This document shows positions 34,862-56,513 of a DNA stretch of 64,000 nt, piece by piece. This stretch comes from Verrucomicrobiales bacterium (lineage in GTDB: Bacteria > Verrucomicrobiota > Verrucomicrobiia > Limisphaerales > UBA1100): NCBI GenBank assembly GCA_005809105.1, contig SYLI01000021.1, positions 245-64,244 of the forward strand, in the 5' to 3' direction. The notes beneath the pieces are model-generated. The model was not told where the DNA came from, ran no database searches, and saw only the letters and a list, made by a program, of their open reading frames with translations. The first letter of the stretch is position 1. Every line of letters begins with the position of its first letter. A program made the translations under genes and the position numbers.

Positions 34862-35967
34862 TGGATCAACATGGCGTCGCCGTAGCTGAAGAACCGGTAC
34901 TCTCGCTGCACCGCTTGGTTGTAGCAATCCAACAGCCGCGCGCGTCCGGCCGTGCCGCCGGGCTCTGTGAAGGCGCAGGCGAGCATCAGCAGCGTGGACT
35001 GGGGAAGGTGAAAATTGGTGATCAAGGCATCAACGGCGCGAAACTCGAACGGGGGATGGATGAAGATCTCGGTTTCGCCGCTTCCGGCGACGAGTCGCCC
35101 ACCATGCTGGTGCGCCACGGTTTCTAGCACGCGCAGCGTGGTAGTGCCCACGGCAACGATGCGGCGGCCAGCCTGCCGGGTGCGTTGAATCGCGTCGGCC
35201 GCGCGCGCAGAGAGATCGAACGATTCCCGATGCATACGATGCGCCGCCAATGTGGGGGCCGTCATCGGCGCGAAGGTTCCGTGCCCGACGTGCAGCGTTA
35301 CGAAGCAATGATCCACGCCACGGCTTGTCAGCGCTTTCAAGAGGGAGGATGTAAAATGCAGGCCGGCGGTGGGTGCGGCGCAGGAGCCCGGGTGCTGCGC
35401 GAACACCGTTTGATAGCGGCCCCGGTCGGCGCGCTGGGGAAAGTGGGAATCGCGGCGAATATATGGTGGCAAGGGTACTTCACCCAGCCGGTGCAGGTGC
35501 CCTCGCAGGCTGCCATCACATTGGAATTGGAAAAGGCAGCGGCCGTCGGGCTCTTTCTGGAGCAGGAGGGCGCGGACACGAGTGCGCCGGCCAGTCGTGC
35601 CCAGCATGTCCAGAGCATCACCGGGGCGCATGCGCTTGGCAGGACGCAATAGCGTCCACCAAATGTTTTCGGACTGCTCGCGCAGCAGAAAGACCTCAGC
35701 CTTCCCGCCGGAGGCTGTTTTTACACCTCGCAGGCGCGCAGGGATGACCCGCGTGTCATTGAGCACCAGCAAGTCTCCCGGGCGCAGATGGTGGGGCAGG
35801 GTGTGGAAGCGTTCATGGCTGACTCGTCCGCTGGCGCGATCCAGAACGAGTAGCCGGGATTGATCGCGCCGGTGTGCGGGGCGCTGGGCGATGAGCGCCG
35901 GGGGCAGGGCGTAGTCGAAATCTGCCGCCGTCAGTTCAAAGCCAAGCCTTTGTGGTGGAGCAGCCAT
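34858..35967 (-). CDS. queA: S-adenosylmethionine:tRNA ribosyltransferase-isomerase
   Basis: FDYALPPALIAQRPA..RDQSRLLV...; LPPYI; TVGTTTLRVLE; 369 aa. Confidence 0.95.
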   Translation of the reverse strand: MAAPPQRLGFELTAADFDYALPPALIAQRPAHRRDQSRLLVLDRASGRVSHERFHTLPHHLRPGDLLVLNDTRVIPARLRGVKTASGGKAEVFLLREQSENIWWTLLRPAKRMRPGDALDMLGTTGRRTRVRALLLQKEPDGRCLFQFQCDGSLRGHLHRLGEVPLPPYIRRDSHFPQRADRGRYQTVFAQHPGSCAAPTAGLHFTSSLLKALTSRGVDHCFVTLHVGHGTFAPMTAPTLAAHRMHRESFDLSARAADAIQRTRQAGRRIVAVGTTTLRVLETVAHQHGGRLVAGSGETEIFIHPPFEFRAVDALITNFHLPQSTLLMLACAFTEPGGTAGRARLLDCYNQAVQREYRFFSYGDAMLIQ

Positions 35968-36072
35968 TGCCTCACTGCGATTTAGACATTCCCGGCGACA
36001 TCACGCCAGAGGTCTTATTCAAATCATTGATTACAAATGTGATACAAGAGTTTGTGAATCACCATTACAGCG

Positions 36073-36108
36073 AAAGTGAAATAAAGTGTTGCACTGTGTG
36101 TCGAAGTG
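36073..36108 (+). promoter_or_regulatory. Putative MraZ operator: four direct hexamers at exact 10-bp spacing in an AT-rich region upstream of mraZ
   Basis: AAAGTG (36073-78), AAAGTG (36083-88), ACTGTG (36093-98), GAAGTG (36103-08). The GTG cores sit at 36076/36086/36096/36106. Embedded in the only markedly AT-rich intergenic stretch here (~35990-36125). The last box ends 25 nt before the mraZ ATG. Confidence 0.5.
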
Positions 36109-36132
36109 GGTTAATAGTTCAACCAAGTTGCT

Positions 36133-36597
36133 ATGGCCGTGAAGGGTGCCAATGTGCCTGTTTACTACAATTCGCTCTACCGACATGGGGTGGATGCGAA
36201 GCGTCGTGTACAGATTCCGGCCAAATGGCGGCCTGCCGAGAAGGGTTTTGAATTTACGCTCATCGTCTGGCCCAAATCGGCTCATGGCACCTGCTTGCGA
36301 GTATTGCCGCCCGAACAGATGGCCAAGCTGATGCGCGACATTGACGCGATGAGTAATGACGATCCCAACAAGGTGGTGCTCAAGCGCTTCATCGGCAGCG
36401 AATCGATCCAGGTGGCGCTGGACAGTGCCGGCCGGATTTGCATCCCGGAGGCCATGTCGAAGGCGGCTGGGGTGGAAAATGAAGCCATGCTCGTGGGGTT
36501 GCTGGATCGCTTTGAGGTGTGGTCGCCGGTGAGGTACGAAATGGCATCGAAGGCCGACCGCGGAATGGCCGGCGCCGCCTTCAAGATGATGGAGTAA
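36133..36597 (+). CDS. mraZ: Transcriptional regulator MraZ
   Basis: Two SpoVT/AbrB-like halves with the DxxxR motif (GVDAKRRVQIPAKWR ... ALDSAGRICIPEAM); 154 aa; first gene of the dcw cluster. Confidence 0.9.
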   Translation: MAVKGANVPVYYNSLYRHGVDAKRRVQIPAKWRPAEKGFEFTLIVWPKSAHGTCLRVLPPEQMAKLMRDIDAMSNDDPNKVVLKRFIGSESIQVALDSAGRICIPEAMSKAAGVENEAMLVGLLDRFEVWSPVRYEMASKADRGMAGAAFKMME

Positions 36598-36808
36598 CGC
36601 GGTGCCGTGCGATGTGTGGCCACCATGGAATTTATCAAGACAGAGCCAAGGGGGTGCGCGGTGGCGGGGTCCTTCGGCCCGGCCATTGCGTTCTAGGTAA
36701 TGCCACAGAGGCCGGTTGGTTGATCAGGGTGCCTGCCCTGACAGCCAGCCGGCCTTGGGCAAACTTGCTTTTGGTTGCGCGAGCAGCCGGGGGAGGGGGC
36801 GAATTGTA

Positions 36809-39800
36809 GTGCGTGTATCAACGCAATTAAGGCGGTGGATACGGCGCGCGGCGGCGCTGGTGACCATGGCGCTGGCGTTGGGTGCGCCGCCGGCGCAGGC
36901 CTTCACCCTCATCGGGCCTCCCAACCCGGCCGCGTTTGATTGGGCCACCTACTTCACCTTTGCCGCCCTTCCGGCCGCACCCACGATGCCCGGCGGCGGC
37001 GCCGCGGCTCAGCAGGGTTCGCTTAACTTCGTGGACCCACTGGGTTGGCCGGTGCCGGTGAAGGAGTTCTACCGGTGGAATTTCCCCGAACTCACCTACG
37101 CCTTTGACAGCTCGTTCATCCGTTTCTTTGGCCACCATGGCATGCAGGCGGTGCACAATTCCTTCCGGGTGCTCAATGATTATTTTGAACCGGAGGACGC
37201 GGCGTACGATGGCGTCAGCACCCTGGATTTGCTGCGGCAGTACGACCAGCACTTTTCCACATGGCGCTTTAATCCCTCGGCCAACGTGGGAAACGTGACC
37301 GACATGCAGACCCTCGTCACGGGCCTGCTGGTCAATCACATGGGATTGGGCAATCCCCATCGCTACTGCTACGTCATTCGGGACATCATCAACTACCTCG
37401 CAAACGACACGACTTCGCGGGGCGATTTCCACGTCACCCTGCGAAACTACGACCCCTTCACCTACCACCCCTCGGCCGTCATCAATGGGGTCAATCACAG
37501 CTACTACATCTACTCCAATCCGGCCTACGTCGCTGGCGCGGGCGGCGCGCGCCCAGCCGTGTTCGATGCCGTTGAGTACGCCGTCAGCAGCGACAATGAG
37601 TTTAGCGCCGTTGCGGCCATCCGCGACGTGATCAACTTTGGCGGGTTGCCCTGGCCGCAGGTGGCCCCCACGGTGTTCCGCACGCCCGGCGTCTTCTTTA
37701 CCCCCGAAGACTCGCGCAACAAGCCTGCGATCAATACCACAAGCACCGTGCGGGACCAGCCCAGGCACACGTTGACCTACGACGATGCTGGCGGCCTGCG
37801 CTATCTCTATCGCACCAACAACGTGGTGTTCGAAAGACTCGATGCTTCGGTCACGCTGGTCACCCTGGCAAACATGAACCCCCCGCCGCGCACCACCGGC
37901 ATCCCCCCGGCCGTTCCTCCCAACTCTCCATTTAACACCCCGCAGGTGCGGACCATCACGGGGTTGGTGGCCGCCACCATCACACCCGCCAACAGCGCCA
38001 CGGGCAGTATCCGGCCGCAGGTGACCACCATCGTCCGCGACGGACTGCGCGGTGGCATCAACAAGATCCGATTCAACTACCTTCCCTATGATTCGCTGCT
38101 GGGGAGCGCCTATCACACCAACAACAGTGTCTGGACGGATGTCTTCATCACCAACGCGCTCCCGACGGACATCGTGCCCGCCAATCCCCCATTCTTTAGC
38201 CAGGTGGTGCAGCGCACCACCACCCGGCCCGATATCATCTTCATCGCGCAGGATCTCGGCGTGGCGGGCAACGTGCTGCCGGTGATCCAAATCCCGGACA
38301 CCGCCAACTGGGACAACTCCATGATTGCGAGCAACACCCAGCAGGGCGCCGCTGGACGGTACATGGGGCCGGGCGTGATCCGCCCTCCGGCTGCGACCTC
38401 GATTCAATACATCTTCACCACGCGCGCGCCTTTCCATCAGGTCGTCTGGTCGGGCCAGCAAGGCATCGAGGGGAACATGGTGACTCAATTTCAGTGGGGC
38501 TGGATCACCAACACCGGCCCCAATGACTTCATCCGCTTCCCCGAGGCGGACATCACGCAACCCGAAGGAGTCGTCGCGCCCAGCGGCGTGGTGCCGGAAA
38601 TGACGGCGTTGTCTGTGCTCGACGGCAGCCAGAACATCTTCACTTCGCCTTCCACCAGCTACAACATCGACCGCACCCTGGACACGCTCATCATCTACGG
38701 CCGACGCTTGGACACGGTGAGCCAGATTCGAATTCTGGACCACAACACCACCGTCGCCGGCAAGTATCGGGAACTGCAAGCGATTGACGCCCGGCGGCAC
38801 ATCATGAGCGACCAGCAAATCGTGCTCTCGCCCGGAACGCTCAATGAAAAAACCGTGTCGCCCTCCACAGGCACGTGGTACCGGCGGATCAGCCTTGTCA
38901 ACTCGCGAGGCGAAAGCGTCTCGGAGCTGCTCTACAAGATTCGGGATGGCCGCCCGCTCATCCATGCCACCCAGTACGACGGCTTGCCGCTCAATACCAC
39001 CAAGAGCCTCGTCATCACGGGCAGCGGGTTCAGGACGGCGAACGGCAACGTGAACCAGATCTGGTTCTTCGATGACAACAACGGCACCAACAACGCCCTG
39101 GATCCGGACACGGGCACGGGCGTCTTTCCAATCCCCATCGCCATATTGGACATCAATGCCACCAGCGCGTACGTCGCGCCCAGCGGTGTGGGAGCGAGGA
39201 ACACCGACATCGTCATCACCGACAACTCCATCTATCTGCCTCCCCACATGATCAGCGACGGCCTCTTCATTCCTGGCGGGCTCCCCGCCACGTTTGGCTC
39301 CTTCGGGTTTGGCACCTTGGGACAGGGAAACAACATGGCGCGTAGCGACGGCAACAGCACCGACGTCACCGTCCTGCTCTTTACCAAGCACATTCGGGTG
39401 GCCATCAACAACAGCCTTACCGGTCAGCCCAACGCCAACGTCATCATCAGTCCGGCGCGGCCCACCGTTCAGGGGTTCACGCAAATTGGCGTGGGGGGTG
39501 AACGCAACTCGACCGCGCCGGGAGTGGGCGGCGAGCCCACCTTCCCCATCATCACCGATGTGTTTACCAACGCCACCTTGCCGGGTGCGCCCGTGACGGT
39601 TGCCGATGCCAACCGGACGTGGCTGCGCGGCACCGATGCAGACACGCTCACCATCCGCGGCCGTGGGCTGGACTTGGCCGTCGCCATCGAATTTGTGGAC
39701 GGGCTGGGCAATTCCATCCAATCCACCGATGCCGTCGGCCTGCCGCCGCAGCCCGTCTCGCTGCGGCAAAACGCCAACCCCAGCACGCTGGCGACGGGGG

Positions 39801-40000
39801 TCACCATCGTGCCGCAGGCCGTCGTGGGGTCACGCGACGCCTACGAAATCCGCATCAGTCCGGTGACCTTCGGCATGAATGGCAACGCGCTCTTTGACTC
39901 GGCCGCCAGCACCAATCCCAACCAGCTGCGCCGGGTGGTGATCCGCACGCCTTTCGGGACGGCCATCGCGCCTGTCAGCACGTACCTGATGATTCAGTAG
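36809..40000 (+). CDS. Large secreted protein (~1063 aa from a GTG start) of unknown function; C-terminal half with at least 3 Ig-like (IPT/TIG-like) segments
   Basis: One continuous ORF (track 36716..40000). Proposed GTG start at 36809 is preceded by GGGAGGGGG. Signal peptide RVSTQLRRWIRRAAALVTMALALGAPPAQA|F. Asn/Thr/Pro/Ile-rich composition. IPT-like strings TLIIYGRRLDTVSQIRILD, SLVITGSGFRTANGNVNQIWFFD, TLTIRGRGLDLAVAIEFVD. Ends 12 nt before rsmH. Confidence 0.75.
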   Translation: MRVSTQLRRWIRRAAALVTMALALGAPPAQAFTLIGPPNPAAFDWATYFTFAALPAAPTMPGGGAAAQQGSLNFVDPLGWPVPVKEFYRWNFPELTYAFDSSFIRFFGHHGMQAVHNSFRVLNDYFEPEDAAYDGVSTLDLLRQYDQHFSTWRFNPSANVGNVTDMQTLVTGLLVNHMGLGNPHRYCYVIRDIINYLANDTTSRGDFHVTLRNYDPFTYHPSAVINGVNHSYYIYSNPAYVAGAGGARPAVFDAVEYAVSSDNEFSAVAAIRDVINFGGLPWPQVAPTVFRTPGVFFTPEDSRNKPAINTTSTVRDQPRHTLTYDDAGGLRYLYRTNNVVFERLDASVTLVTLANMNPPPRTTGIPPAVPPNSPFNTPQVRTITGLVAATITPANSATGSIRPQVTTIVRDGLRGGINKIRFNYLPYDSLLGSAYHTNNSVWTDVFITNALPTDIVPANPPFFSQVVQRTTTRPDIIFIAQDLGVAGNVLPVIQIPDTANWDNSMIASNTQQGAAGRYMGPGVIRPPAATSIQYIFTTRAPFHQVVWSGQQGIEGNMVTQFQWGWITNTGPNDFIRFPEADITQPEGVVAPSGVVPEMTALSVLDGSQNIFTSPSTSYNIDRTLDTLIIYGRRLDTVSQIRILDHNTTVAGKYRELQAIDARRHIMSDQQIVLSPGTLNEKTVSPSTGTWYRRISLVNSRGESVSELLYKIRDGRPLIHATQYDGLPLNTTKSLVITGSGFRTANGNVNQIWFFDDNNGTNNALDPDTGTGVFPIPIAILDINATSAYVAPSGVGARNTDIVITDNSIYLPPHMISDGLFIPGGLPATFGSFGFGTLGQGNNMARSDGNSTDVTVLLFTKHIRVAINNSLTGQPNANVIISPARPTVQGFTQIGVGGERNSTAPGVGGEPTFPIITDVFTNATLPGAPVTVADANRTWLRGTDADTLTIRGRGLDLAVAIEFVDGLGNSIQSTDAVGLPPQPVSLRQNANPSTLATGVTIVPQAVVGSRDAYEIRISPVTFGMNGNALFDSAASTNPNQLRRVVIRTPFGTAIAPVSTYLMIQ

Positions 40001-40012
40001 TGCAGCCCATGA

Positions 40013-40912
40013 TTGCCCGTGTCCAACTTTGCGCACAAACCGGTCCTGCTCGCCGAGGTCCTCGCTACGTTGGGCCCGAGCGAGGGGGGGCGGATGGTGG
40101 ATGGCACGCTTGGCGGGGCGGGCCACGCCGAAGCCATTTTACAGGCCAGCCAATCAGGCTGGCTTGGGGGGTGCGACCGGGACGGGGCGGCGATTGGCGC
40201 TGCCCTGTCCCGACTCAAACCTTATGCCCACCGATGCGACTTGCGCCGAGGCACGTTTGCCGAGCTGCCCGAATGGATCGAGCCGGGAAGCGTGGATGGC
40301 GTGTTGTTGGACTTGGGAGTGAGTTCGCCGCAGTTGGATCACCCCGAACGCGGTTTTAGTTTTCAACATGACGGCCCGTTGGACATGAGAATGGATGATC
40401 GCCAAAACCTGACGGCGGCCGAGGTGGTGAACACAATGGACGAGCCGCGGCTCTCATCGCTGTTTTGGGAATTGGGCGAGGAACGCGAGTCGCGGAAACT
40501 GGCGCGGGGAATCGTGCGCGAGCGCCAGTCGCAACACTTCGCGACTACCGGAGAGCTAGCCAGCCTCATCGAGCGCCTCTCGCCGCGCCGGGGGCGCCGG
40601 CTGCATCCGGCCACGCGCGTATTTCAGGCGCTGCGTATGTATGTGAACGACGAAGTGGGACTGCTTGAGCGCGGCCTGCCCGCGGCTGCGTCTCTCTTGC
40701 GCCCTGGTGGCCGACTGGCGGTGATCACCTTTCATTCGCTGGAAGGCCGGATTGTGAAAGCATTTGGAGACGCCGCGAGCAAGGCGTCGCCTCCGACCTT
40801 GGGCTGGGTGCGCCGCAAGGTGATTCAACCGGGGGACGCCGAACTGGATGAGAATCCGCGGGCCCGAAGCGCTTGCTTGCGAGTGCTTCAAAAGAGCCAG
40901 GGGGAACCATGA
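40013..40912 (+). CDS. rsmH: 16S rRNA (cytosine1402-N4)-methyltransferase
   Basis: HKPVLLAEVL...VDGTLGGAGHAEAIL...LLDLGVSSPQLD...GFSF..DGPLDMRM...ITFHSLE. TTG (40013) or GTG (40019) start. Confidence 0.92.
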   Translation: MPVSNFAHKPVLLAEVLATLGPSEGGRMVDGTLGGAGHAEAILQASQSGWLGGCDRDGAAIGAALSRLKPYAHRCDLRRGTFAELPEWIEPGSVDGVLLDLGVSSPQLDHPERGFSFQHDGPLDMRMDDRQNLTAAEVVNTMDEPRLSSLFWELGEERESRKLARGIVRERQSQHFATTGELASLIERLSPRRGRRLHPATRVFQALRMYVNDEVGLLERGLPAAASLLRPGGRLAVITFHSLEGRIVKAFGDAASKASPPTLGWVRRKVIQPGDAELDENPRARSACLRVLQKSQGEP

Positions 40913-43044
40913 CGCCAAGAGAACTTGTCAACCATGGCCGTAGAGGTGGCCCCCTGCTGGCATTGATCCCGATGGTGGTGGGCGCGGCATTGAGTCCCAT
41001 GGGGCAGGAACACCCACTCATTGGCGACATCGCCGGGCATCAGCAGCGGCCGCAAATGGTGCTGGGAGCCAAGGGCGGTCTCGTCGTCTGGCAGCATGAA
41101 TCGGAGAGCAGCAAGGGCGAACATGTGATGGTGCAGGCGCTCAACGCCGATGGCGTGGGCACGGGAATTCCCATCCGGATGAGCACGGCCACCGACGGGA
41201 GGATGGAACGCCATCCGCGCGGGGCCCTGCTGCCTGATGGCAACGCGGTGGTGGTCTGGGAAGCCGGCACGCGCGCCAATCGCGAAATCTACCTAAGGTT
41301 GCTGGCGCCTAACTTCACCTTTCTCACGCCTGAGGTGAGGGTGAACACCCGACAGGCCGGCAATCAACACATGCCGGCGCTGGCGGTGTTAAACGACGGC
41401 ACCATCGTGGTGCTGTGGCGCAGCGACCTTGCCGATGGCAGCCACGGCGGCGTCATGGGTCAGCTCCTCAATGCTCAGGCAGCCAAGCTGGGAGGGGAGT
41501 TCACCGTGCACCAGAGCGCGCAGTCCAATCAGTCCCAGCCCGCGGTGGCGCCCTTGAAGAATGGCGGATTCGTGGCCGCATGGATTTCGGAAACGGTGAA
41601 CGGCCAGACGCCGGAAGGCGCACCCAACATCAAGGGCAACGTGTTCGGGCGCGTGTTTAACGCACAGGGAGCTCCCGCACCGGACGAAAAGCGACTCAAC
41701 GGGGTGGAGGGCCTTTGCTCCGCTCCCACCCTCGCCGCGATGGAGGAGGGGTTCCTTCTCGCGTGGGTTCAGGTGGATGAAAAGACGATGAGCAATCAGG
41801 AGGACATCTGGGTGAGACGATTTGGTGCCGATGGCACGGCTACCGGCGACGGAGCACGTCACAACAAACTTACCGTCGGCCGACAAAGCGCGCCGACGCT
41901 ATCGGTGAACGGGGCCGATGCGCTGGTGGCATGGCAATGCGAGGTGCGTCAGACCGCCAGCTACGAGGTGCATGGCAGGCTCTTGTCCGGGGGCGCGGAA
42001 TTCCGAATCAACAACCGCGTGCTTTACCACCAACGGCAACCCACCGCAGCGGTTGATGCCGCGGGAAACCATCATGTCGCGTGGGTGGATTCCGTGAGGG
42101 ATCGGCACGCCATCTTGTCGGCACGCAGTTATAGTGGCGCCGCGGACAAGGATGTGACGGCCCTTGCCGATGTCAGTTATGAGGGTGAAGGTGCCGACGG
42201 CGTCATGCTGGCCGGACAGGTTGTGAAGCAAAAGGATCCTGGAGCAGAGGAAATCTCGGCGCGTGCAGCCGTCCAGAGAGAAGCGGCGGAAGGCGCGGCC
42301 GATCAGCAGGCAGCCCAAGCTGCCGCCATCGCACAGGCTGCCGCTGGACGCGCGGCCACGGGTATTCTGATGGGCGTTGCACAGGGCGCGACCGGGGGCA
42401 CGGCAGAGGCGTCGAAATCGCCACTCGCTGGTGCTGTGGCCGGCCAGCGGTTGCCGGGCGACAGTGCGGCACAAACGGCGCTCGCCAGTGCTGCGCGTAA
42501 GGGAGCTGCGATTACCGGAGGCATCGCGCGTCTCAACACTTCACGATCCGCGACGGCGTCGAGCACCGCTTCAAACCTGCGGAATATCGTGGCCCAATCG
42601 CGCGCCAGCGCGGTGGCATTGTCGCCTGCCGTGACGAGGTCGGGATATGTCGATCCCAAGGCGGGATCCGCCACGCCCTCGCGCATTCCCGCGTCTACCA
42701 AAGCAACAACGAGCCGGGCTGAGCCCGCCCGTTCGCAAGCCCGCACCAGTGCGCCCGGTGCGAGCGCGGCGGCAAGGTTAAGCACCGCCCGGGCGGCGGC
42801 CGCCACGAGCTCAGGTGCAGCGCGCGCCGTGCCGGCCGTGCAGGCGTCGCTCGTGGGCTCAGGCAAAAATCTCCAGCTGCAGTGGAACACCGTTTCCGGA
42901 GGCAAGTATCAGGTGCAAGGGTCGCCCGATCAGCGGACTTGGCAAAACGTCGGGGCGGTGCGCACGGGCGCTGGAGCGGCTGATTCGGTGCCGGTGGATG
43001 CAGCGGGCAATCTGAGATTCTTCCGGGTGTCCAAGAACAACTAA
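40909..43044 (+). CDS. Exported 711-aa protein: seven tandem ~50-55-aa beta-propeller-like repeats, ~200-aa Ala/Ser-rich linker, small C-terminal beta-sandwich-like domain (…LQLQWNTVSGGKYQVQ…LRFFRV)
   Basis: The ATG at 40909 overlaps the rsmH TGA (ATGA). N-terminal RRGGPLLALIPMVVGAAL signal/anchor. Repeat consensus Q..P.vA.L.dG..vV.W ... i.GrlF.a.G...g.EF.VN seen 7 times (aa ~43-410). The stop at 43044 lies 1 nt before the ftsL-like GTG. Confidence 0.8.
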   Translation: MTPRELVNHGRRGGPLLALIPMVVGAALSPMGQEHPLIGDIAGHQQRPQMVLGAKGGLVVWQHESESSKGEHVMVQALNADGVGTGIPIRMSTATDGRMERHPRGALLPDGNAVVVWEAGTRANREIYLRLLAPNFTFLTPEVRVNTRQAGNQHMPALAVLNDGTIVVLWRSDLADGSHGGVMGQLLNAQAAKLGGEFTVHQSAQSNQSQPAVAPLKNGGFVAAWISETVNGQTPEGAPNIKGNVFGRVFNAQGAPAPDEKRLNGVEGLCSAPTLAAMEEGFLLAWVQVDEKTMSNQEDIWVRRFGADGTATGDGARHNKLTVGRQSAPTLSVNGADALVAWQCEVRQTASYEVHGRLLSGGAEFRINNRVLYHQRQPTAAVDAAGNHHVAWVDSVRDRHAILSARSYSGAADKDVTALADVSYEGEGADGVMLAGQVVKQKDPGAEEISARAAVQREAAEGAADQQAAQAAAIAQAAAGRAATGILMGVAQGATGGTAEASKSPLAGAVAGQRLPGDSAAQTALASAARKGAAITGGIARLNTSRSATASSTASNLRNIVAQSRASAVALSPAVTRSGYVDPKAGSATPSRIPASTKATTSRAEPARSQARTSAPGASAAARLSTARAAAATSSGAARAVPAVQASLVGSGKNLQLQWNTVSGGKYQVQGSPDQRTWQNVGAVRTGAGAADSVPVDAAGNLRFFRVSKNN

Positions 43045-43045
43045 C

Positions 43046-43390
43046 GTGAACCAGAAAAAAAACTCATCCCTGCGATTTGTTCCGGCGGTCAAGGCCGCAT
43101 TAATTTGCCTCGTCACCTGTGCGCTGGGCCTAGGCTATGTGTGGCAGAAACAACAAATCTCAAAACTGGGCGAGGAGATGAAGAAGCGTGAGGAACGCCT
43201 GGGCACATTGCGGCAGGAGAACAAGCGTTTCAATGACATCCTTGCCCAGCTCAAGTCTCCTCAAACGCTGGACCAGATGGCTCGTGAATGGCGACTCAAT
43301 CTGGAGGCACCCAAGCCTCAACAAGTCGTGGTGGCAACGGAGCCGGCGTCGGAAAATCCCGCCAGGACTGTCCACGCGGCCCGCCGTTGA
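43046..43390 (+). CDS. ftsL: FtsL-like cell division protein (single TM helix + coiled coil)
   Basis: 114 aa; TM segment AVKAALICLVTCALGLGYVW followed by a heptad-like segment QQISKLGEEMKKREERLGTLRQENKRFNDILAQL; canonical position before ftsI; GTG start. Confidence 0.7.
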   Translation: MNQKKNSSLRFVPAVKAALICLVTCALGLGYVWQKQQISKLGEEMKKREERLGTLRQENKRFNDILAQLKSPQTLDQMAREWRLNLEAPKPQQVVVATEPASENPARTVHAARR

Positions 43391-45276
43391 TGTCTCGTCC
43401 TCCCATCGCGCGTTCGGATTCACTGCCTCCCCGGGCTGGAAGGGGCTGGCTTCTCAGTTTCGCATGCTTGCTCCTCGCCTGCTACGGCGCACTGGCCTAC
43501 CGGCTGGTGGATCTTCAGATCCTCCGCCATGCGCAGTTGCGCGAGGTGGCCAGCGACCACACCACGCGCACCGTTATTTCTGAGCCGCGACGTGGCGACA
43601 TCTTCGACTCCCATGGCAATAAACTCGCCACGAGCGTGTTTGTAAAAACGGTGTGCGCCGACCCCTCTCTGTTGGGGCGGCATCACGCTGAGGTGGCCCG
43701 CGCACTGGCACCTGTGCTCAAGCTTGATTCTCTCGAGCTTGAAGCCCGCCTCAAGCCGGCATTGCGACAGAGCGCGTCGGGCCAGCTTCGTACCAATCGC
43801 TATGTGGTGCTGCGACGGAAGGTGAAGCCGGAGATGTGGGAAGCCGTGAAGAAGACTTTGGCGACCCTGCCGCTTTCCGGTGAGCCAGCGCGGCCGGCCG
43901 GGGAACTCCGGCAATACTTTGCCGCGCTTCGCAGGCACGCCATCTTTGCCGATCCTGTGGAGGATCAGGAGCGGATTTACCCATCAGGGGCGCTAGCGGC
44001 GCATGTTCTGGGTTTTGTGGCTGGAGACGAACATGCGGGCAGGGAAGGGGTCGAGGCGGCGCTTGATACGCACCTCACGGGCGCGCGCGGGTGGCGCGTC
44101 ATCCAGACCGATGCGCGCAAGCGCGAGAAGGTGGAGCATCGGGTGCAGGACATTCCCGCGCGCAATGGTCTCAATGTCGTGTTGACGCTCGACGCAGGCG
44201 TGCAGAACATCGCCGAGACGGAGCTGGCCGCCGCTGTTAAAAAACATCAACCTCAGGGCGCGACCGTCATCGTGATGCGTCCAGCCACAGGCGACATCTT
44301 GGCGATGGTCAATGCGCCGTCCTTCGATCCCAATCGCCCGGGTGATTTTGACGCTGCGCAACGCCGCAATCGTGCCGTCACCGACTTGTCTGAACCCGGA
44401 TCCACCTTCAAGATCGTTCCCATCGCCGCCGCTCTCAATCAGGGCAAGACCACGCTGGCCAACCAGTTTCATTGCGGCGACGGGCAGTTTCCCTACGCCG
44501 GCAGAGTGCTGCACGATCATCATCCCTACGGGCTGCTCAGCGTCGAGGGCATCATCACCAAGTCCTCGAACATTGGAGCGGCCAAGGTGGGGATGCTGCT
44601 GGGTGCACCCCTGCTGCACCAGTACATCCACGACTTTGGCTTCGCGCGCAAATCGGGCATCCAGCTTCCCGGCGAGGTCGCCGGCGTGGTGCATCCTTTG
44701 GCGAGGTGGAATGCGCTGTCCATCACGCGCCTGCCCATGGGGCATGAGATGAGCGCCACGCCGTTGCAGATGGTGATGATGATGGGCGCCATCGCCAACC
44801 GCGGCCAGCTGATGCAGCCGCGGCTGGTGGATCATCTGGCCAACGACGAGGGTCAGGCGGTGGTGCGCTTTGGCGCCAAAGTGGTGAGGCAGGTGATCAA
44901 ACCCGAGACGGCCTTACAGATGACGCGCGCGTTAAAGACGGTCGTCGGGCCAGAGGGCACGGCCAAGGGAGCGCGGCTGCCCTACCACTCGGTTGCGGGC
45001 AAGACGGGCACGGCCCAGAAGCCAGGCCCTGGCGGGTACCTGCCCGGCAAGTATTACTCGTCCTTCATCGGATTTTTTCCTGCCGACTCGCCTGAAGTGT
45101 GTATCTTGGTCTCCATGGATGAGCCGCAGGGGGAATACTACGGAGGCGTCGTTGCCGCGCCGGTGTTTAAGGCCATCGGCGAGCGCGTGGCTGCGTATCT
45201 GGCCATCAAGCCCGACTTGAATCCGGACGCCAGCCTAGTTTCAGCCGACGAGAAAGCCCGCGCGCGCCGTCCCTGA
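43390..45276 (+). CDS. ftsI: Peptidoglycan D,D-transpeptidase FtsI (class B PBP)
   Basis: Start trimmed to the ATG at 43390 (TGATG overlap with the ftsL stop). TM anchor WLLSFACLLLACYGALAY. Motifs STFK (GSTFKIV), SSN (KSSNIG), KTGT (GKTGTAQ). Confidence 0.92.
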   Translation: MSRPPIARSDSLPPRAGRGWLLSFACLLLACYGALAYRLVDLQILRHAQLREVASDHTTRTVISEPRRGDIFDSHGNKLATSVFVKTVCADPSLLGRHHAEVARALAPVLKLDSLELEARLKPALRQSASGQLRTNRYVVLRRKVKPEMWEAVKKTLATLPLSGEPARPAGELRQYFAALRRHAIFADPVEDQERIYPSGALAAHVLGFVAGDEHAGREGVEAALDTHLTGARGWRVIQTDARKREKVEHRVQDIPARNGLNVVLTLDAGVQNIAETELAAAVKKHQPQGATVIVMRPATGDILAMVNAPSFDPNRPGDFDAAQRRNRAVTDLSEPGSTFKIVPIAAALNQGKTTLANQFHCGDGQFPYAGRVLHDHHPYGLLSVEGIITKSSNIGAAKVGMLLGAPLLHQYIHDFGFARKSGIQLPGEVAGVVHPLARWNALSITRLPMGHEMSATPLQMVMMMGAIANRGQLMQPRLVDHLANDEGQAVVRFGAKVVRQVIKPETALQMTRALKTVVGPEGTAKGARLPYHSVAGKTGTAQKPGPGGYLPGKYYSSFIGFFPADSPEVCILVSMDEPQGEYYGGVVAAPVFKAIGERVAAYLAIKPDLNPDASLVSADEKARARRP

Positions 45277-53044: not shown

Positions 53045-54204
53045 TGCCCACCTCACACGCCGCGCCGCGCGTTCACATTGTCTGTGGTGGCACCGGGGGA
53101 CACTTTTTCCCGGGCGTGGCGGTGGCGCGCGAGTTGCAACGGGCGGGCGTCATCGTGACCCTGTTGATTTCAGAAAAGCGAGTCGACCAGCAAGCCGCCC
53201 AGTCACAGGGCGACCTCGAAATATGCGAACTGCCTGCGGTGTCGTGGCAGACACGCGCGCCATGGAGGTTTCTCAATGGGTTGATTCGTTCTCTGAGGAA
53301 GGTGCGAACTCTTCAACTCCACCAACGGCCCGATGCCGTGCTTGCGATGGGCGGATTTACTAGCGTCGCGCCGGTGCTAATGGCGCGGGCGGCCGGGGTT
53401 CCCGTTTTCCTCCACGAATCCAACGCCATTCCCGGCCGCGCCAACCGCTGGCTGGCGCCGTTGGCGCATCAAGTGTTCGTGGGATTTGAAAGCGCACGCC
53501 ATCGATTTCTGCACACGCACGTTGAGGTCACCGGCACGCCCGTCCGCGACGCTTTTTTTACCGCGACGTGCGAAGCCAGCCGCGTGGGGCTAGGGCTGGA
53601 CGCCGGGCGTCCCGTGCTCCTCATCATGGGAGGCAGCCAAGGCGCGCGAGCCATCAACCACCGGGCACTGGCGGTTCTGCCGGCGCTTTTGAAAGCATGG
53701 CCCTCGTTGCAGTTCCTGCACCTGTGCGGCGGAGGCGATGGCGAGGAGGCGCGGGTGCGCGCGGCCTATGAGGCGCAGGGAGCCACGGCACGTGTGCATG
53801 AGTTTCACGCCGACATGCCCTTGGTGTTGGCTGCGGCGGACGTGGCGGTTGGCAGGGCAGGGGCCTCATCGCTGGCGGAACTGGCGGCCGCGCGATTGCC
53901 CTCGGTGCTCATTGCTTTACCCACGGCCGCGGACGACCACCAGCGGTACAACGCGCGAGAATTTGAAAGACGCGGTGCCGCGCGGATGGTTGAACAATCG
54001 GCAGGTCCAGAGGAGCTGGCCCAAGCGCTGTGCCAGTTGCTTGCGAACCGGGCGCCCGTCCGTGCAGCCCTCGCGGGCATGGCGGCACCTCGAGCCGCGG
54101 CACAGGTCGCCGCACACATTCTGTCCTGCGTTCGGCCGCAGCGTTCGGCCAACGCGCCACAAACATGGAACGACCCGACACTTTGGTCCCCCATTACGGC
54201 CTGA
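53041..54204 (+). CDS. murG: UDP-N-acetylglucosamine--N-acetylmuramyl-(pentapeptide) pyrophosphoryl-undecaprenol GlcNAc transferase
   Basis: IVCGGTGGHFFPGVAVARE; GRAGASSLAELAA; ATGA overlap with the ftsW stop. Confidence 0.92.
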   Translation: MMPTSHAAPRVHIVCGGTGGHFFPGVAVARELQRAGVIVTLLISEKRVDQQAAQSQGDLEICELPAVSWQTRAPWRFLNGLIRSLRKVRTLQLHQRPDAVLAMGGFTSVAPVLMARAAGVPVFLHESNAIPGRANRWLAPLAHQVFVGFESARHRFLHTHVEVTGTPVRDAFFTATCEASRVGLGLDAGRPVLLIMGGSQGARAINHRALAVLPALLKAWPSLQFLHLCGGGDGEEARVRAAYEAQGATARVHEFHADMPLVLAAADVAVGRAGASSLAELAAARLPSVLIALPTAADDHQRYNAREFERRGAARMVEQSAGPEELAQALCQLLANRAPVRAALAGMAAPRAAAQVAAHILSCVRPQRSANAPQTWNDPTLWSPITA

Positions 54205-56513
54205 CGACCACCGACCGCGGAGAGCTCGCGCGTTGGATCGAAACGACCGACGCGCCCGTGTACCTGCTGGGCGCGGGAGGCTGCGGCATGAGCGCCTTGG
54301 GACATCTGCTGCTTGACCATGGTCTATGCGTGTGTGGTTCCGACGCGCGTTCGACGGCTGCCCTACGACAGCTCTCCGGGCGCGGCGCGGATTTGCGAGA
54401 AGGACACGAGGCTGCGCATCTGCTGGCACATCGCCCTGGGTTGGTGGTGTATTCTTCGGCCATCCGGCTCGACAATCCCGTGATGATCCAAGCGCAACGC
54501 GCCGGCTTGCGGCTAGCCCGCCGCGCGACCGTGCTCGCCGCACTAATGGAAGGACGCCGTGGTGTGTGTGTGGCCGGCATGCACGGGAAAACCACGACGA
54601 CTGGACTGCTGGCGCACGCCTTACGCGAACTGGGTGCGGATCCTGGATACGCCGTCGGTGGGTTGGTGGCCGAGTGGGATCGCCCGGCGCGCCTGCGCGG
54701 CGGGGATCGTTTCATGGTGGTGGAAGCGGACGAAAGCGACGGCACCCTTCTCGAATTTCGCCCGGAACAGGCACTCATCCTCAATGTGGACGAGGAACAT
54801 CTGGATTACTTCGCCGACCTTGCGGCCGTGTGCCGGGAATTTGAAACCTTCGCTTCGCAGGTGCGCGGGCCGCTCTTCTATTGCGCCGATGATGCGCGTT
54901 TGGTGGCGATGTTCGCGAACCGGCAGGGTGCGATCTCATTTGGCTTCAACTTGGCCGCCCACTATCGCGTAGAGCCGCGCCCGCCTGCCACTGACGGTGC
55001 GGCGCCCTTCGACTTGTGGCACCAGGGCGTATTGCTGGCGACGATCACCCTTAAGCTCGCAGGAGAGCAGAACATGTCTAATGCGGCCGGCGTGGCCGCC
55101 TTCCTGCATCAGAACGGATTTGACGCGCAGCAGATTTCAGCGGCCTTGGGCTCCTTTGGAGGCGCGATGCGCCGCCAGCAAACCCTCTATCGAAGCGCCC
55201 AACTCACCGTGATGGATGACTACGCTCATCATCCTCGCGAGATCGAGGCCACGCTTAAAGCCATGCGCAGCCGGCATCACGGCCGCCTGCTGGTGGCCTT
55301 CCAGCCCCATCGCTACACGCGCACCCAGCATCTTCTCAAGGACTTTGCGCGCTGCTTTTCCGGCGCTGACGCCGTGTGGATCACCGAGGTCTATGCCGCC
55401 AGCGAGCCCGTGATTCCCGAGGTCAACGGCCGGCGCTTGGCCGAGGCCGTGTCCGCGCAGGGGGTTCCGTCTGTCTTTGTGGCGACGCTGGCCCAGTTGC
55501 GCGAGCAAGTGTCCATCGCCATGCGGCCGGGCGACATGGTACTGTTTCTCGGGGCGGGAGACATCACCCAAGCGGCGCACCAACTGGCGATGCAAGCGGC
55601 CTTGAATGAAAGCAGCGTGGCGGCGGCGCTGCGCGGACTACTCTCGCCTGCCTCCGCCCTGCGCGAGCACGAGCCCATGTCCCGGCGCACCACGCTGCAC
55701 GTGGGGGGAGCGGCCGACGTGTTTGTGGAACCGGCATCCGAGGCAGACCTGGCGGCCGCGCTGGCCTGTTGCAATGCCCGCGCCGTGCCGGTGTTCCTGC
55801 TGGGGCGCGGTTCCAATCTGCTGGTGAAAGACGGCGGCATTCGCGGCGTGGTGATCCACCTTGGGGCGCCGGTGTTTTCCGGAATGGATGTGTGCGGCGA
55901 GAGGATTTACTGCGGTGCCGGTGTGCGACTCAAGCATCTGGCCCACGAAGCGCGCAAATGCGGTCTGGCTGGGTTTGAATTTCTGGAAGGCATCCCCGGC
56001 AACCTAGGCGGCGCACTGAGGATGAATGCGGGCGCCATGGGCTCTGAGATATTTGGCTTGGTGGAATCCGTCCGCGTGATGAGCTTGTCCGGAGAGATCG
56101 AGGATCTGACTCGCGATCAGTTGGGAGCGCAATACCGACACTGCCCCGCGCTGAAAGAAAAGGTGGCGCTGGGCGCCGTGCTCCGGGGCAGGGTGGACTC
56201 CCCCGGCGCTGTGGCCGAACGCATGCGATCATTCAGCCAGAAGCGCCACGATTCCCAGCCGGGAGCCAAGAGCGCCGGTTGCATTTTCAAAAACCCTCTT
56301 GAATGTCCCGCCGGCCGGCTTGTGGACGAACTGGGGCTCAAAGGCACGCGTGTGGGGGGGGCCGCCGTGTCCGAGGTGCATGGCAATTTCATCGTCAACG
56401 AGGGGAATGCCACGGCGCAGAATGTGCTCGACCTCATTGCGCTCATTCAGGCAAGTGCCCGTGCCGAGCGCCACATCGAGCTTTGCACCGAAGTGCAGAT
56501 CATCGGTGAGTAG
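54165..56513 (+). CDS. murC: Bifunctional MurC-MurB fusion: UDP-N-acetylmuramate--L-alanine ligase (N-terminal ~470 aa) + UDP-N-acetylenolpyruvoylglucosamine reductase (C-terminal ~300 aa)
   Basis: Start trimmed to the ATG at 54165 (40-nt overlap with murG; later TTG/CTG starts are possible). MurC: GAGGCGMSALG, GMHGKTTTTG, DDYAHHP. MurB from ~nt 55600: RRTTLHVGGAADVFVEP, GRGSNLLV, GIPGNLGGALRMNAGA, SAGCIFKNP. No stop codon between the two halves. Confidence 0.9.
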   Translation: MERPDTLVPHYGLTTTDRGELARWIETTDAPVYLLGAGGCGMSALGHLLLDHGLCVCGSDARSTAALRQLSGRGADLREGHEAAHLLAHRPGLVVYSSAIRLDNPVMIQAQRAGLRLARRATVLAALMEGRRGVCVAGMHGKTTTTGLLAHALRELGADPGYAVGGLVAEWDRPARLRGGDRFMVVEADESDGTLLEFRPEQALILNVDEEHLDYFADLAAVCREFETFASQVRGPLFYCADDARLVAMFANRQGAISFGFNLAAHYRVEPRPPATDGAAPFDLWHQGVLLATITLKLAGEQNMSNAAGVAAFLHQNGFDAQQISAALGSFGGAMRRQQTLYRSAQLTVMDDYAHHPREIEATLKAMRSRHHGRLLVAFQPHRYTRTQHLLKDFARCFSGADAVWITEVYAASEPVIPEVNGRRLAEAVSAQGVPSVFVATLAQLREQVSIAMRPGDMVLFLGAGDITQAAHQLAMQAALNESSVAAALRGLLSPASALREHEPMSRRTTLHVGGAADVFVEPASEADLAAALACCNARAVPVFLLGRGSNLLVKDGGIRGVVIHLGAPVFSGMDVCGERIYCGAGVRLKHLAHEARKCGLAGFEFLEGIPGNLGGALRMNAGAMGSEIFGLVESVRVMSLSGEIEDLTRDQLGAQYRHCPALKEKVALGAVLRGRVDSPGAVAERMRSFSQKRHDSQPGAKSAGCIFKNPLECPAGRLVDELGLKGTRVGGAAVSEVHGNFIVNEGNATAQNVLDLIALIQASARAERHIELCTEVQIIGE

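What the first reader, a model, noticed from the sequence alone, without database searches (positions are those of the whole stretch)
36809..40000. ~1063-aa secreted protein of unknown function inserted between mraZ and rsmH
mraZ and rsmH are normally adjacent. Here a 3.2-kb ORF separates them and ends only 12 nt before rsmH.

The sense frame has a GGAGG-type RBS, a GTG start and a convincing signal peptide (cleavage around AQA|F). Its composition is Asn/Thr/Pro/Tyr/Ile-rich.

The C-terminal ~460 aa (nt ~38588-39985) contain at least three segments with IPT/TIG-like Ig-fold signatures: xLxIxGxGF/L....v.f (TLIIYGRRLDTVSQIRILD; SLVITGSGFRTANGNVNQIWFFD; TLTIRGRGLDLAVAIEFVD).

The middle ~220 aa and the N-terminal ~320 aa match nothing I can name with confidence. 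A large periplasmic or surface protein at this position has not, to my knowledge, been described.
Basis: partly seen in the sequence, partly recalled or inferred. Interest (0 to 1): 0.75.

Follow-up and report, generated by a model that had tools for sequence, protein, structure and literature searches.

The report
Exported protein gene inside division operon
A real, conserved gene for a large exported protein of an undescribed family sits between mraZ and rsmH in one clade of uncultured aquatic Verrucomicrobiota, and it is a spare copy of a gene that normally lies beside the pilus-type secretin cluster.

Summary
A 1063-codon gene ("X", 36809-40000, + strand) lies between mraZ and rsmH at the start of a complete dcw cluster. 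It is coding: GC3 is 0.83 and pN is far below pS. It has a signal peptide whose cleavage site, A-x-A|F-(S/T)-L-(L/I)-G-P, is nearly invariant in 113 relatives.

All 30 related loci with at least 40% identity keep X at this junction wherever the contig reaches. Relatives of 36% identity or less lie elsewhere. On an RsmH+FtsI tree the X-bearers form one clade, with at least one nested loss. The sister clade carries a different small ORF at the same junction.

X has two parts. A ~565-aa head matches no Pfam, NCBIfam or PDB entry but belongs to a family of 1091 clusters. A ~470-aa tail consists of tandem Ig-like sandwiches.

A second unknown exported protein ("Y", 40909-43044) sits between rsmH and ftsL. 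Outside dcw, Y-like and X-head genes form an adjacent pair directly downstream of the verrucomicrobial pilM / Amuc_1100 / secretin cluster. This held even when loci were sampled through Y.

Best reading: a duplicated envelope or surface module captured by the MraZ-controlled operon. The mechanism is inferred, not shown.

The parts
36074..36108 (+). Four (A/C)(A/T)GTG boxes at an exact 10-nt period (36074, 36084, 36094, 36104) just upstream of mraZ. Candidate MraZ operator of the operon promoter.
   Evidence: The same array, preceded by a TTGAC hexamer, is conserved upstream of mraZ in relatives of both clades. The operator role rests on published MraZ-box arrangements and was not tested here.
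36133..36597 (+). [quoted passage not shown]
   Evidence: PF02381 E 1.9e-13 and TIGR00242 E 6e-24. 66-76% identical to MraZ in 100+ related loci.
36645..36690 (+). Conserved leader element: GCCAAGGGGG box (36645-36654) followed by a 14-bp hairpin (arms 36657-36670 and 36677-36690, loop 36671-36676).
   Evidence: Present after mraZ in every clade-A locus, including the three that lack X. RNAalifold finds a 14-pair stem with 6 compensatory pairs. 97% of cells pair against 33-47% in slid controls, and 0/500 shuffles reach the covariation score. No Rfam match.
36790..36800 (+). Shine-Dalgarno-like GGGGGAGGGGG, 8 nt upstream of the GTG start of X.
   Evidence: read directly from the sequence.
36809..36901 (+). 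X signal peptide (aa 1-31, MRVSTQLRRWIRRAAALVTMALALGAPPAQA), with cleavage predicted before Phe32.
   Evidence: The A-x-A|F site and the n/h regions are conserved across 113 family members. There is no Cys, so no lipobox. SignalP was not available.
36902..38593 (+). X 'head' (aa ~32-595): a globular alpha/beta plus beta-rich domain of an undescribed family. Motifs include FxLxGP, YRWNxPxLTYAFDxSF, NxDPxT, LTxDDxGGLRYLY, PDIxFxAxDLG, GPG and WGxxxxxTNxP.
   Evidence: Matches the head-family HMM at E 3.7e-111. 1091 clusters at E<=1e-3, most of them 450-520-aa head-only proteins. AF2 with 75 sequences gives pTM 0.80 and pLDDT 76. Best Foldseek hit in PDB is E 0.6, and nothing in BFVD. No Pfam match in any of 75 members.
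38594..39997 (+). X 'stalk' (aa ~596-1063): about four tandem Ig-like beta-sandwich domains.
   Evidence: AF2 pLDDT ~80-90, all beta. Foldseek PDB hits: LILRB3 7e-7, KIR, titin FN3, MpAFP RII 4p99, plexin IPT3-6 5l7n. The stalk HMM hits orthologues strongly and paralogue stalks as repeated units.
40013..40912 (+). rsmH (mraW), starting 12 nt after the X stop codon.
   Evidence: PF01795 E 5.7e-96 and TIGR00006 E 2e-89. Junction sequence.
40909..43044 (+). Y: a second unknown exported protein (711 aa). It has an N-terminal hydrophobic segment, at least six ~55-aa propeller-like 'VVW' repeats, a ~210-aa Ala/Ser-rich linker and a small C-terminal beta domain. Its ATG overlaps the rsmH stop codon (ATGA).
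   Evidence: No Pfam family. The propeller is related to the N-termini of RTX-type calcium-binding proteins. The C-terminal domain weakly resembles CBM32/discoidin modules (E 4e-4). Y-like genes sit directly upstream of X-head genes at non-dcw loci.
43046..43390 (+). ftsL-like gene, starting 1 nt after the Y stop codon. The rest of the dcw cluster follows.
   Evidence: Weak DivIC/FtsL matches. ftsI, murE, murF, mraY, murD, ftsW, murG, murC-murB fusion, ftsQ and ftsA are confirmed downstream.

Best explanation
What X is. X is a Sec-exported envelope or surface protein with no recognisable catalytic site. A ~565-aa globular head of an undescribed Verrucomicrobiota family is carried on a stalk of about four Ig-like domains.

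Where the family normally lives. The head family occurs as a gene pair (Y-like beta-propeller protein, then X-head protein) immediately downstream of the pilM / Amuc_1100 / secretin (type IV pilus-like) cluster.

What happened here. [quoted passage not shown]

How it probably works. X is most likely transcribed from the MraZ-controlled promoter and translated in tight series with rsmH, Y and ftsL. The cell would then make this exported X/Y module in step with cell-wall synthesis and division.

Shown: the gene is real and under purifying selection; it has export signals; the two-part architecture; strict synteny; the operon-like packing; and the X/Y pairing next to secretin clusters.

Inferred: co-transcription; physical or functional cooperation between X and Y; final location (periplasm or cell surface); any use of the secretin; and what the head binds.
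For: Gene reality and selection.

Export signal: conserved in 113 sequences.

Architecture.

Synteny: all 22 loci with >=40% identity from genomes and protein look-ups, plus 8 more from the metagenome scan, have X flanked by mraZ and/or rsmH. All relatives at <=36% identity lie outside dcw.

Clade structure.

Operon packing: gaps of 12, -4 and 1 nt; 3-30 nt in orthologues; no + strand terminator between mraZ and ftsL.

MraZ-box array upstream of mraZ.

Pairing. Y-like genes lie directly upstream of X-like genes in L023, L031, L041, L043 and L044. In the reciprocal test, three distant Y homologues all lie in a cluster reading PilM_2 - Amuc_1100 - unknown - Secretin - (exonuclease) - Y-like - next gene. 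That next gene is an X-head member in the two loci with DNA (E 3e-127 and 1e-90). L023 and L043 also start with a secretin. One MAG carries both a secretin-linked pair (L023) and the dcw copy (L015).

Cluster identity: the Amuc_1098-1102 cluster is described as a type IV pili cluster with a PilQ secretin (PMC5332112, PMC10688800).
Against: - There are no expression data. The 211-nt gap before X could hold its own promoter or an attenuator, since a conserved hairpin sits there.
- X and Y are separated by rsmH here, and their order is reversed (X then Y) compared with the secretin-linked pairs (Y then X).
- Y is missing from the orthologue subclade at 40-42% identity (L004, L015, L017, L019).
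- X and Y are both missing from three loci of the same clade (L048, L057, L065; one of them, L057, is nested in the tree). The module is therefore dispensable.
- The largest paralogue group sits beside a metallo-beta-lactamase-fold / ABC transporter / ZnuA group and a polysaccharide cluster, with no Y-like gene. The pairing is frequent but not universal.
- Neighbourhood to a secretin does not show that X uses it.
- The head has no known fold or ligand.
Confidence: 0.55

Rival explanations
1. Hitch-hiker. X is an ordinary surface or adhesin-like protein with no functional tie to division. The mraZ|rsmH junction is simply a tolerated insertion site in this group. Once inserted, the gene is held in place by the strong order constraint on the dcw cluster and benefits from a steady promoter.
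For: The sister clade carries a different, unrelated small ORF at the same junction. X-less loci occur within the X clade. Paralogues function in unrelated neighbourhoods. The Ig-like stalk is typical of surface proteins.
Against: X has been retained with strong purifying selection across a clade whose X proteins have diverged to 40% identity. Spacing to rsmH is kept at 3-30 nt in all orthologues. A second gene from the same module (Y) was inserted independently one gene further down, also with coupled spacing. Two linked insertions into the same operon are harder to explain as accidents.
Confidence: 0.25
2. Dedicated periplasmic division or peptidoglycan-remodelling factor. For example, a catalytically dead metallopeptidase-like head could regulate cell-wall hydrolases, by analogy with the degenerate LytM factors EnvC and NlpD (analogy from general knowledge).
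For: X lies inside the dcw operon with coupled spacing. The top Foldseek hits for the head are all matrixin catalytic domains, over ~40 residues at rmsd ~2.5 A. BFVD shows the same for baculovirus metalloproteases. Motifs such as LTYAFD and LTxDDxGGLRYLY recall matrixin strand 1 and helix C.
Against: Those Foldseek matches have E 0.6-3. hhalign against MMP-13 gives probability 1.2%, and its score of 19.2 is reached by 2 of 40 shuffled controls. No HExxH or HxxEH motif is present. X was lost in a nested lineage. The family's main homes are secretin and polysaccharide neighbourhoods, not cell-wall loci.
Confidence: 0.15
3. Artefact: a chance long ORF in GC-rich DNA, or a mis-assembled or pseudogenised insert.
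For: At 63% GC both strands carry ~1000-codon ORFs here. One orthologous locus (L022) has X split into pieces.
Against: GC3 of 0.83 is seen in the + frame only. There are 38 full-length orthologues with 150+ invariant columns, and pN is far below pS. The same gene is found on independent contigs from many samples.
Confidence: 0.01

Closest known systems
Amuc_1098-Amuc_1102 'type IV pili' cluster of Akkermansia muciniphila (PilQ secretin, Amuc_1100, PilM/FtsA-like Amuc_1101)
   Same: In other Verrucomicrobiota, homologous clusters (Pfam PilM_2, Amuc_1100, Secretin) are followed directly by a Y-like gene and an X-head gene. All the products carry export signals, as reported for the Akkermansia cluster (PMC5332112).
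   Different: X is not homologous to any of the five described proteins. The downstream Y/X genes are not mentioned in the papers I read. In A. muciniphila itself the neighbouring genes Amuc_1082-1096 are iron-transport genes (PMC12552655). The copy studied here sits in the dcw operon, not beside a secretin.
Lineage-specific extra genes inside dcw clusters (e.g. MG_223 between mraW and ftsZ in Mycoplasma genitalium, PMC8475190; others recalled from memory, such as the Neisseria dca genes)
   Same: A non-canonical gene embedded co-directionally in an otherwise conserved division and cell-wall operon, and inherited vertically within a clade.
   Different: Here the extra genes are a 1063-aa and a 711-aa exported protein, placed at the very 5' end (mraZ|rsmH and rsmH|ftsL). 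They are paralogues of a pair linked to a pilus/secretin cluster. I found no report of this arrangement.
Tandem Ig-like / FN3 / IPT stalks of surface proteins (LILRB3 6grt, titin FN3, MpAFP region II 4p99, plexin IPT3-6 5l7n)
   Same: The C-terminal ~470 aa fold into consecutive beta-sandwiches that superpose on these chains (Foldseek E 7e-7 to 1e-4).
   Different: Sequence identity is 6-12%. No Pfam Ig, TIG, FN3 or Big model matches. No membrane anchor or sorting signal is visible at either end of the stalk.
Matrixin (M10A) metallopeptidase catalytic domain
   Same: Local similarity of one strand plus helix (about 40 residues, rmsd ~2.5 A) and of a DDxxGxxxLY-type helix motif (sequence inspection).
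   Different: There is no zinc-binding HExxHxxGxxH motif. The order of secondary-structure elements differs in the model. The profile comparison is not better than shuffled controls. X is not a member.
Secreted beta-propeller N-domains of RTX 'calcium-binding proteins' (comparison for Y)
   Same: The Y repeat region aligns with them at E 1e-12 to 1e-24 (P0282, P0283, P0286).
   Different: Y has no RTX (PF00353) repeats. It carries an Ala/Ser linker and a small discoidin-like C-terminal domain instead.

Membership tests
Member of the dcw (mra) operon | Same strand, inside the cluster, short or overlapping junctions, no terminator | tested here: met
   Order is mraZ-X-rsmH-Y-ftsL-ftsI-murE.... 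Gaps are 12, -4 and 1 nt. No + strand terminator-like site between mraZ and ftsL.
Member of the dcw (mra) operon | Position conserved in relatives | tested here: met
   30 loci have X between mraZ and rsmH. All paralogues at <=36% identity lie elsewhere.
Member of the dcw (mra) operon | Co-transcription with mraZ and rsmH | not testable with these tools
   Needs RNA-seq or metatranscriptomes. A conserved hairpin lies in the 211-nt gap.
Sec / signal peptidase I exported protein | Basic n-region, hydrophobic h-region, small residues at -3 and -1, no lipobox Cys | tested here: met
   The sequence is MRVSTQLRRWIRRAAALVTMALALGAPPAQA|F. The pattern is conserved in 101 of 110 relatives. The single Cys is at residue 187. 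No dedicated predictor was available.
IPT/TIG domain (Pfam PF01833) | Match to the family HMM | tested here: not met
   0 Pfam families at E<=0.1 for X.
IPT/TIG domain (Pfam PF01833) | Ig-like beta-sandwich fold in tandem | tested here: met
   AF2 pLDDT 80-90 for aa 595-1063. Foldseek hits include plexin IPT3-6, but equally LILR, KIR and FN3 chains.
Matrixin / metzincin peptidase | HExxHxxGxxH zinc site | tested here: not met
   No HExxH or HxxEH motif in X.
Matrixin / metzincin peptidase | Significant profile or fold similarity over the catalytic domain | tested here: not met
   hhalign probability is 1.2%, and 2 of 40 shuffles score as high. Foldseek E is 0.6-3 over ~40 columns only.
Undescribed 'X-head' family (A|FSLLGP ... 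WGSFDGSTNxP) | Full-length match to a profile built from the 450-520-aa head-only members | tested here: met
   E 3.7e-111, profile positions 10-452 of 523. The alignment shows shared motifs along the whole head.
Undescribed 'X-head' family (A|FSLLGP ... WGSFDGSTNxP) | Adjacent Y-like gene | tested here: inconclusive
   In the window Y is one gene away (rsmH lies between) and the order is inverted. Direct adjacency is seen in L023, L031, L041, L043, L044, L126 and L127. It is absent from the largest paralogue group and from L045.
Type IV pilin / pseudopilin | Short basic leader, G|F(T/S)L(I/L)E, then a hydrophobic helix; Pfam N_methyl | tested here: not met
   The A|FTLIG motif follows the hydrophobic segment rather than preceding it. 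Gly replaces Glu at +5. No PF07963 hit.
Common adhesin or glycosidase families | Any Pfam or NCBIfam catalytic or adhesin domain | tested here: not met
   0 hits for X. 0 consistent hits in 75 head-family members or in 15 other relatives.

The most novel reading that the evidence does not exclude
X and Y could be parts of a previously unrecognised envelope apparatus of PVC bacteria. In this reading, a new-fold head on an Ig-like stalk works with a beta-propeller partner, in concert with the PilQ-type secretin or Amuc_1100 pilus-like machine. In this clade the apparatus would have been wired into the MraZ regulon, so that outer-envelope or surface assembly is physically or temporally coupled to septal peptidoglycan synthesis.
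Probability: 0.12. Interest if true: 0.85.

Novelty: new variant of a known kind. Interest (0 to 1): 0.58.

Why it matters
The first genes of the dcw operon (mraZ-rsmH-ftsL-ftsI) are among the most rigidly ordered genes in bacteria. A clade that has kept two large exported proteins threaded between them is therefore unusual, and it shows that this region can take on lineage-specific envelope functions.

The work also brings to light a large protein family (about 1100 clusters at 50% identity) with no annotation and no structural relative. It gives that family its first functional handle: it is exported, it pairs with a beta-propeller protein, and it is linked to the pilM / Amuc_1100 / secretin cluster that makes the best-known surface structure of Verrucomicrobiota.

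If X and Y do connect that machinery to division, this would bear on how PVC bacteria coordinate outer-envelope assembly with cell-wall growth. If they do not, the case is still a clean example of operon capture of a duplicated accessory module.

Tried and rejected
1. Named families. Pfam and NCBIfam on X, Y, paralogues and 75 head-only members gave nothing consistent. The precomputed tags PF28405 and PF25852 on a few paralogues could not be reproduced with the local Pfam copy.

2. PDB sequence profiles. X orthologues and the head family gave only noise: RNA ligase E 2.3, a TTR ancestor E 0.09.

3. Matrixin idea. It was raised by motifs and by the Foldseek top hits. hhalign is not better than shuffles and there is no zinc site, so it is rejected as membership.

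4. Glycoprotein idea. N-x-S/T sequons number 14 against 10.6 +/- 2.9 expected, which is not enriched. Four D/E-x-N-x-S/T sites in the stalk are conserved in 25-29 of 38 orthologues; I note this but did not follow it up.

5. Viral origin. No BFVD structural match.

6. Known RNA in the mraZ-X gap. No Rfam family. No sigma-70 consensus promoter was found in 35900-43500, although the scan is crude.

7. Are the ~510-540-aa ORFs upstream of the main paralogue group Y-like or X-like? Neither; they form a separate 'U' family.

8. Is the ~1000-aa gene after the secretin-linked pair related to the X stalk? No hit.

9. Pilin-type processing of the A|FTLIG motif. Rejected on topology.

10. Antisense ORF 36827..39769. 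Rejected as a shadow ORF.
Full report
OBSERVATION

A 3.2-kb ORF lies between mraZ and rsmH. I call it X. Its best start is the GTG at 36809, 8 nt after a GGGGGAGGGGG box. This gives 31 residues before an invariant Phe, as in the orthologues. The public gene call (ATG 36866, 1044 aa) would leave a 12-residue leader.

X stops at 39998-40000, 12 nt before the rsmH TTG.

The ORF is not a GC artefact:
- GC at codon positions 1/2/3 is 0.57/0.48/0.83.
- Related loci are 40-57% identical in this frame but only 27-28% in the antisense frame.
- At 70-84% amino-acid identity, pN is 0.11-0.19 while pS is 0.74-0.77.
- The 980-codon minus-strand ORF (36827..39769) is a shadow ORF.

WHAT THE PROTEIN LOOKS LIKE

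X matches nothing in Pfam or NCBIfam, and nothing in the PDB by sequence profile.

The N-terminus is a textbook signal peptide, MRVSTQLRRWIRRAAALVTMALALGAPPAQA|F. The site A-x-A|F-(S/T)-L-(L/I)-G-P is almost invariant in 38 orthologues and 75 more distant relatives. The only Cys is at residue 187, so X is not a lipoprotein.

An exhaustive profile search found 1091 clusters (50% identity level) at E<=1e-3. Most are 450-520-aa proteins that cover the whole first ~600 residues of X, from the signal peptide to a WGxxxxxTNxP motif. None of them has a Pfam family.

X is therefore this 'head' plus a ~470-aa C-terminal extension.
- With 38 close sequences, AlphaFold modelled only the extension well: pLDDT 80-90, all beta. 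Foldseek matched it to chains of tandem Ig-like, FN3 or IPT domains: LILRB3, KIR, titin, an ice-adhesin stalk and plexin IPT3-6.
- With 75 head-only relatives, the head model reached pTM 0.80. It has no significant match in the PDB (best E 0.6) or among viral models.
- The weak top hits are all matrixin catalytic domains over ~40 residues. I tested that lead. hhalign against MMP-13 gives probability 1.2%, and its score is reached by 2 of 40 shuffles. X has no HExxH motif. The head is best called an undescribed fold.

IS THE POSITION CONSERVED?

Yes. Orthologues at 57%, 54% and 40% identity all lie between mraZ and rsmH, with the same upstream genes (queA, ribD-like, murI, citrate synthase).

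A tblastn survey of 43 loci showed that all 22 with at least 40% identity are flanked by mraZ and/or rsmH wherever the contig reaches. Every relative at 29-36% identity lies elsewhere. All hosts are Verrucomicrobiota MAGs of the Limisphaerales/Pedosphaera type, mostly marine or lake samples. Single genomes hold one orthologue plus several paralogues.

A metagenome scan seeded with MraZ gave 80 more loci with MraZ 66-76% identical to the window's. The junction has three states:
- X is present (8 loci).
- rsmH follows mraZ after ~140 nt, with ftsL right after rsmH, so neither X nor Y is present (L048, L057, L065).
- A 510-905-nt gap holds a different conserved small ORF (MSLGRLLTxGKSLxGL...LPKFGxxKNPF...VQGELSLDxVKVV).

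An RsmH+FtsI neighbour-joining tree separates an X-bearing clade from a small-ORF clade. The X-less L057 is nested inside the X clade. The tree has no bootstrap support. It is backed by the leader element described below, which L048, L057 and L065 share with the L003-type X-bearers. X was therefore gained once, inherited vertically, and lost at least once.

OPERON CONTEXT

Upstream of mraZ there are four (A/C)(A/T)GTG boxes at an exact 10-nt period (36074-36108). In relatives they are preceded by TTGAC. The array is conserved in both clades, and it is arranged like published MraZ operators.

Downstream of mraZ, every locus of the X clade, including those without X, has a GCCAAGGRGG box and a 14-bp hairpin (window 36645-36690). 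The hairpin has 6 compensatory pairs. 97% of cells pair, against 33-47% in slid controls, and 0/500 shuffles reach its covariation score. It matches no Rfam family. X was therefore inserted between this older leader element and rsmH.

From X onward the genes are packed tightly. X to rsmH is 12 nt (3-30 nt in orthologues). The rsmH stop overlaps the next start (ATGA). The next junction is 1 nt. No + strand terminator-like site lies between mraZ and ftsL. Co-transcription is thus likely but not shown.

THE SECOND INSERT AND THE PAIRING

Between rsmH and ftsL lies another unknown gene, Y (40909-43044, 711 aa). It has an N-terminal hydrophobic segment, at least six ~55-residue 'VVW' repeats, a ~210-aa Ala/Ser-rich linker and a small C-terminal beta domain.
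- The repeat region is related to the N-terminal domains of RTX-type calcium-binding proteins.
- The C-terminal domain weakly resembles discoidin-type carbohydrate-binding modules (E 4e-4).

Y is present in most orthologous loci but absent from the subclade at 40-42% identity.

Outside dcw, Y-like genes sit directly upstream of X-like genes in L023, L031, L041, L043 and L044.

To avoid sampling bias I searched from Y instead. Three distant Y homologues on long contigs all lie in the same cluster: PilM_2 - Amuc_1100 family - unknown - secretin - (5'-3' exonuclease) - Y-like - next gene - ~1000-aa protein - giant Calx-beta protein. In the two loci with DNA, the 'next gene' is an X-head member (E 3e-127 and 1e-90). 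L023 and L043 also begin with a secretin. L023 and the dcw copy L015 come from the same MAG.

The PilM / Amuc_1100 / secretin cluster corresponds to Amuc_1098-1102 of Akkermansia muciniphila. That cluster is described as a type IV pili cluster whose products are abundant envelope proteins (PMC5332112, PMC10688800). I found nothing published on the downstream Y-like and X-head genes.

The largest paralogue group (~1250 aa) has a different conserved setting. It is preceded by a metallo-beta-lactamase-fold protein, an unknown 'U' protein and sometimes an ABC/FtsX/ZnuA transporter, and it faces a polysaccharide-synthesis cluster.

INTERPRETATION

The best-supported reading is that X is an exported head-and-stalk envelope or surface protein that works with Y. 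This pair would be a duplicate of a module normally encoded next to the pilus-type secretin cluster. In one aquatic clade it was captured by the MraZ-controlled dcw operon, so that it is made together with the cell-wall and division machinery.

The following are inferences: co-transcription, cooperation with Y, final location, and any use of the secretin.

Against a core division role:
- X and Y have been lost in some lineages.
- An unrelated gene sits at the same junction in the sister clade.
- The family's main neighbourhoods are not cell-wall loci.

Against a pure hitch-hiker:
- Selection on X is strong.
- Coupled spacing is conserved.
- Two genes of the same module were inserted one gene apart.

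COMPARISON AND NOVELTY

Lineage-specific extra genes in dcw clusters are known (for example MG_223 in Mycoplasma, PMC8475190). This is a new variant of that kind rather than a new kind.

What is new:
- the size and exported nature of the inserts, and their position at the most conserved end of the operon;
- the X-head family itself, with about 1100 clusters, no annotation and no structural relative;
- the family's link to a Y-like propeller protein and to the Amuc_1100/secretin cluster.

LIMITS
- All hosts are uncultured.
- There are no expression, localisation or interaction data.
- The tree is a simple NJ tree without support values.
- The signal peptide was judged by hand.
- The head model is only moderately confident (pLDDT 76).
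- The head could not be searched against AFDB or as separate domains.

Noticed in passing
window 40909-43044 (+): A second unknown exported protein (Y, 711 aa) lies between rsmH and ftsL. It has propeller-like repeats, an Ala/Ser linker and a small discoidin-like C-terminal domain. Its start codon overlaps the rsmH stop codon (ATGA).
   Followed up: yes
window 36645-36690 (+): A conserved GCCAAGGRGG box plus a 14-bp covarying hairpin lie downstream of mraZ. The element is present in all loci of the clade, including those lacking X, and matches no Rfam family. In X-less loci it is followed by GGGCCC and a T-run, so it may be an attenuator or a processing site.
   Followed up: partly
window 36074-36108 (+): Four (A/C)(A/T)GTG boxes at an exact 10-nt spacing lie upstream of mraZ. 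They are conserved in relatives, where a TTGAC hexamer precedes them. This is probably the MraZ operator.
   Followed up: partly
L049 3373-4029; L058 4771-5493; L070 5372-6022; L098 5448-6038; L119 5466-6080 and many others: In the sister clade a different conserved small ORF (~160-290 aa) fills the mraZ|rsmH junction. It begins MSLGRLLTxGKSLxGL...RY...LPKFGxxKNPF, ends VQGELSLDxVKVVxNDL, and has no signal peptide. It starts 2-10 nt after the mraZ stop codon. Its function is unknown.
   Followed up: partly
window 36827-39769 (-): A 980-codon antisense ORF overlaps X. It is Gly/Val/Arg-rich and is only 27-28% conserved where X is 40-57% conserved. It is a shadow ORF.
   Followed up: yes
window 54030-56513 (+): murC and murB are fused into one 827-aa ORF (Mur ligase domains plus FAD_binding_4 and MurB_C). 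The same fusion is reported for Verrucomicrobium spinosum (PMC12283558).
   Followed up: partly
L005 976-4065 (-): A 1029-aa FtsK-family protein carries a guanylate/adenylate cyclase domain (PF00211) between the 4TM and motor domains. It lies next to a cNMP-binding protein.
   Followed up: no
L005 4243-5772; L006 1268-2902; L007 4159-5757; also L025, L028, L030, L034, L037, L042: A conserved unknown 'U' protein (509-544 aa, with HPISxSxAxVNVRE at the N-terminus and WGHIHTR near the C-terminus) accompanies the main X-paralogue group. It occurs with a metallo-beta-lactamase-fold protein and sometimes an ABC/FtsX/ZnuA transporter.
   Followed up: partly
L001 12305-12835 (+); L020 6654-7169 (+): A small gene (~175 aa) made of two copies of Y's C-terminal domain lies between Y and ftsL in some orthologous loci. 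It is absent from the window.
   Followed up: no
L022 5001-7749: The X orthologue appears split into at least two ORFs (5553-5972 and 6277-7749). This could be a frameshift, a pseudogene or an assembly error.
   Followed up: no
window X residues 756-760, 781-785, 847-851, 933-937: Four D/E-x-N-x-S/T sequons in the stalk are conserved in 25-29 of 38 orthologues, although sequons overall are not enriched. Paralogues lie next to pglF/pglC/pglE-like genes.
   Followed up: partly
L126 10237-13245; L127 10508-13510; L044 5903-9163; L043 6348-10181: A conserved unknown protein of ~1000-1280 aa, and then a giant Calx-beta/DUF5122 protein of 2200-3300 aa, follow the secretin-linked Y-like/X-head pair.
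   Followed up: no
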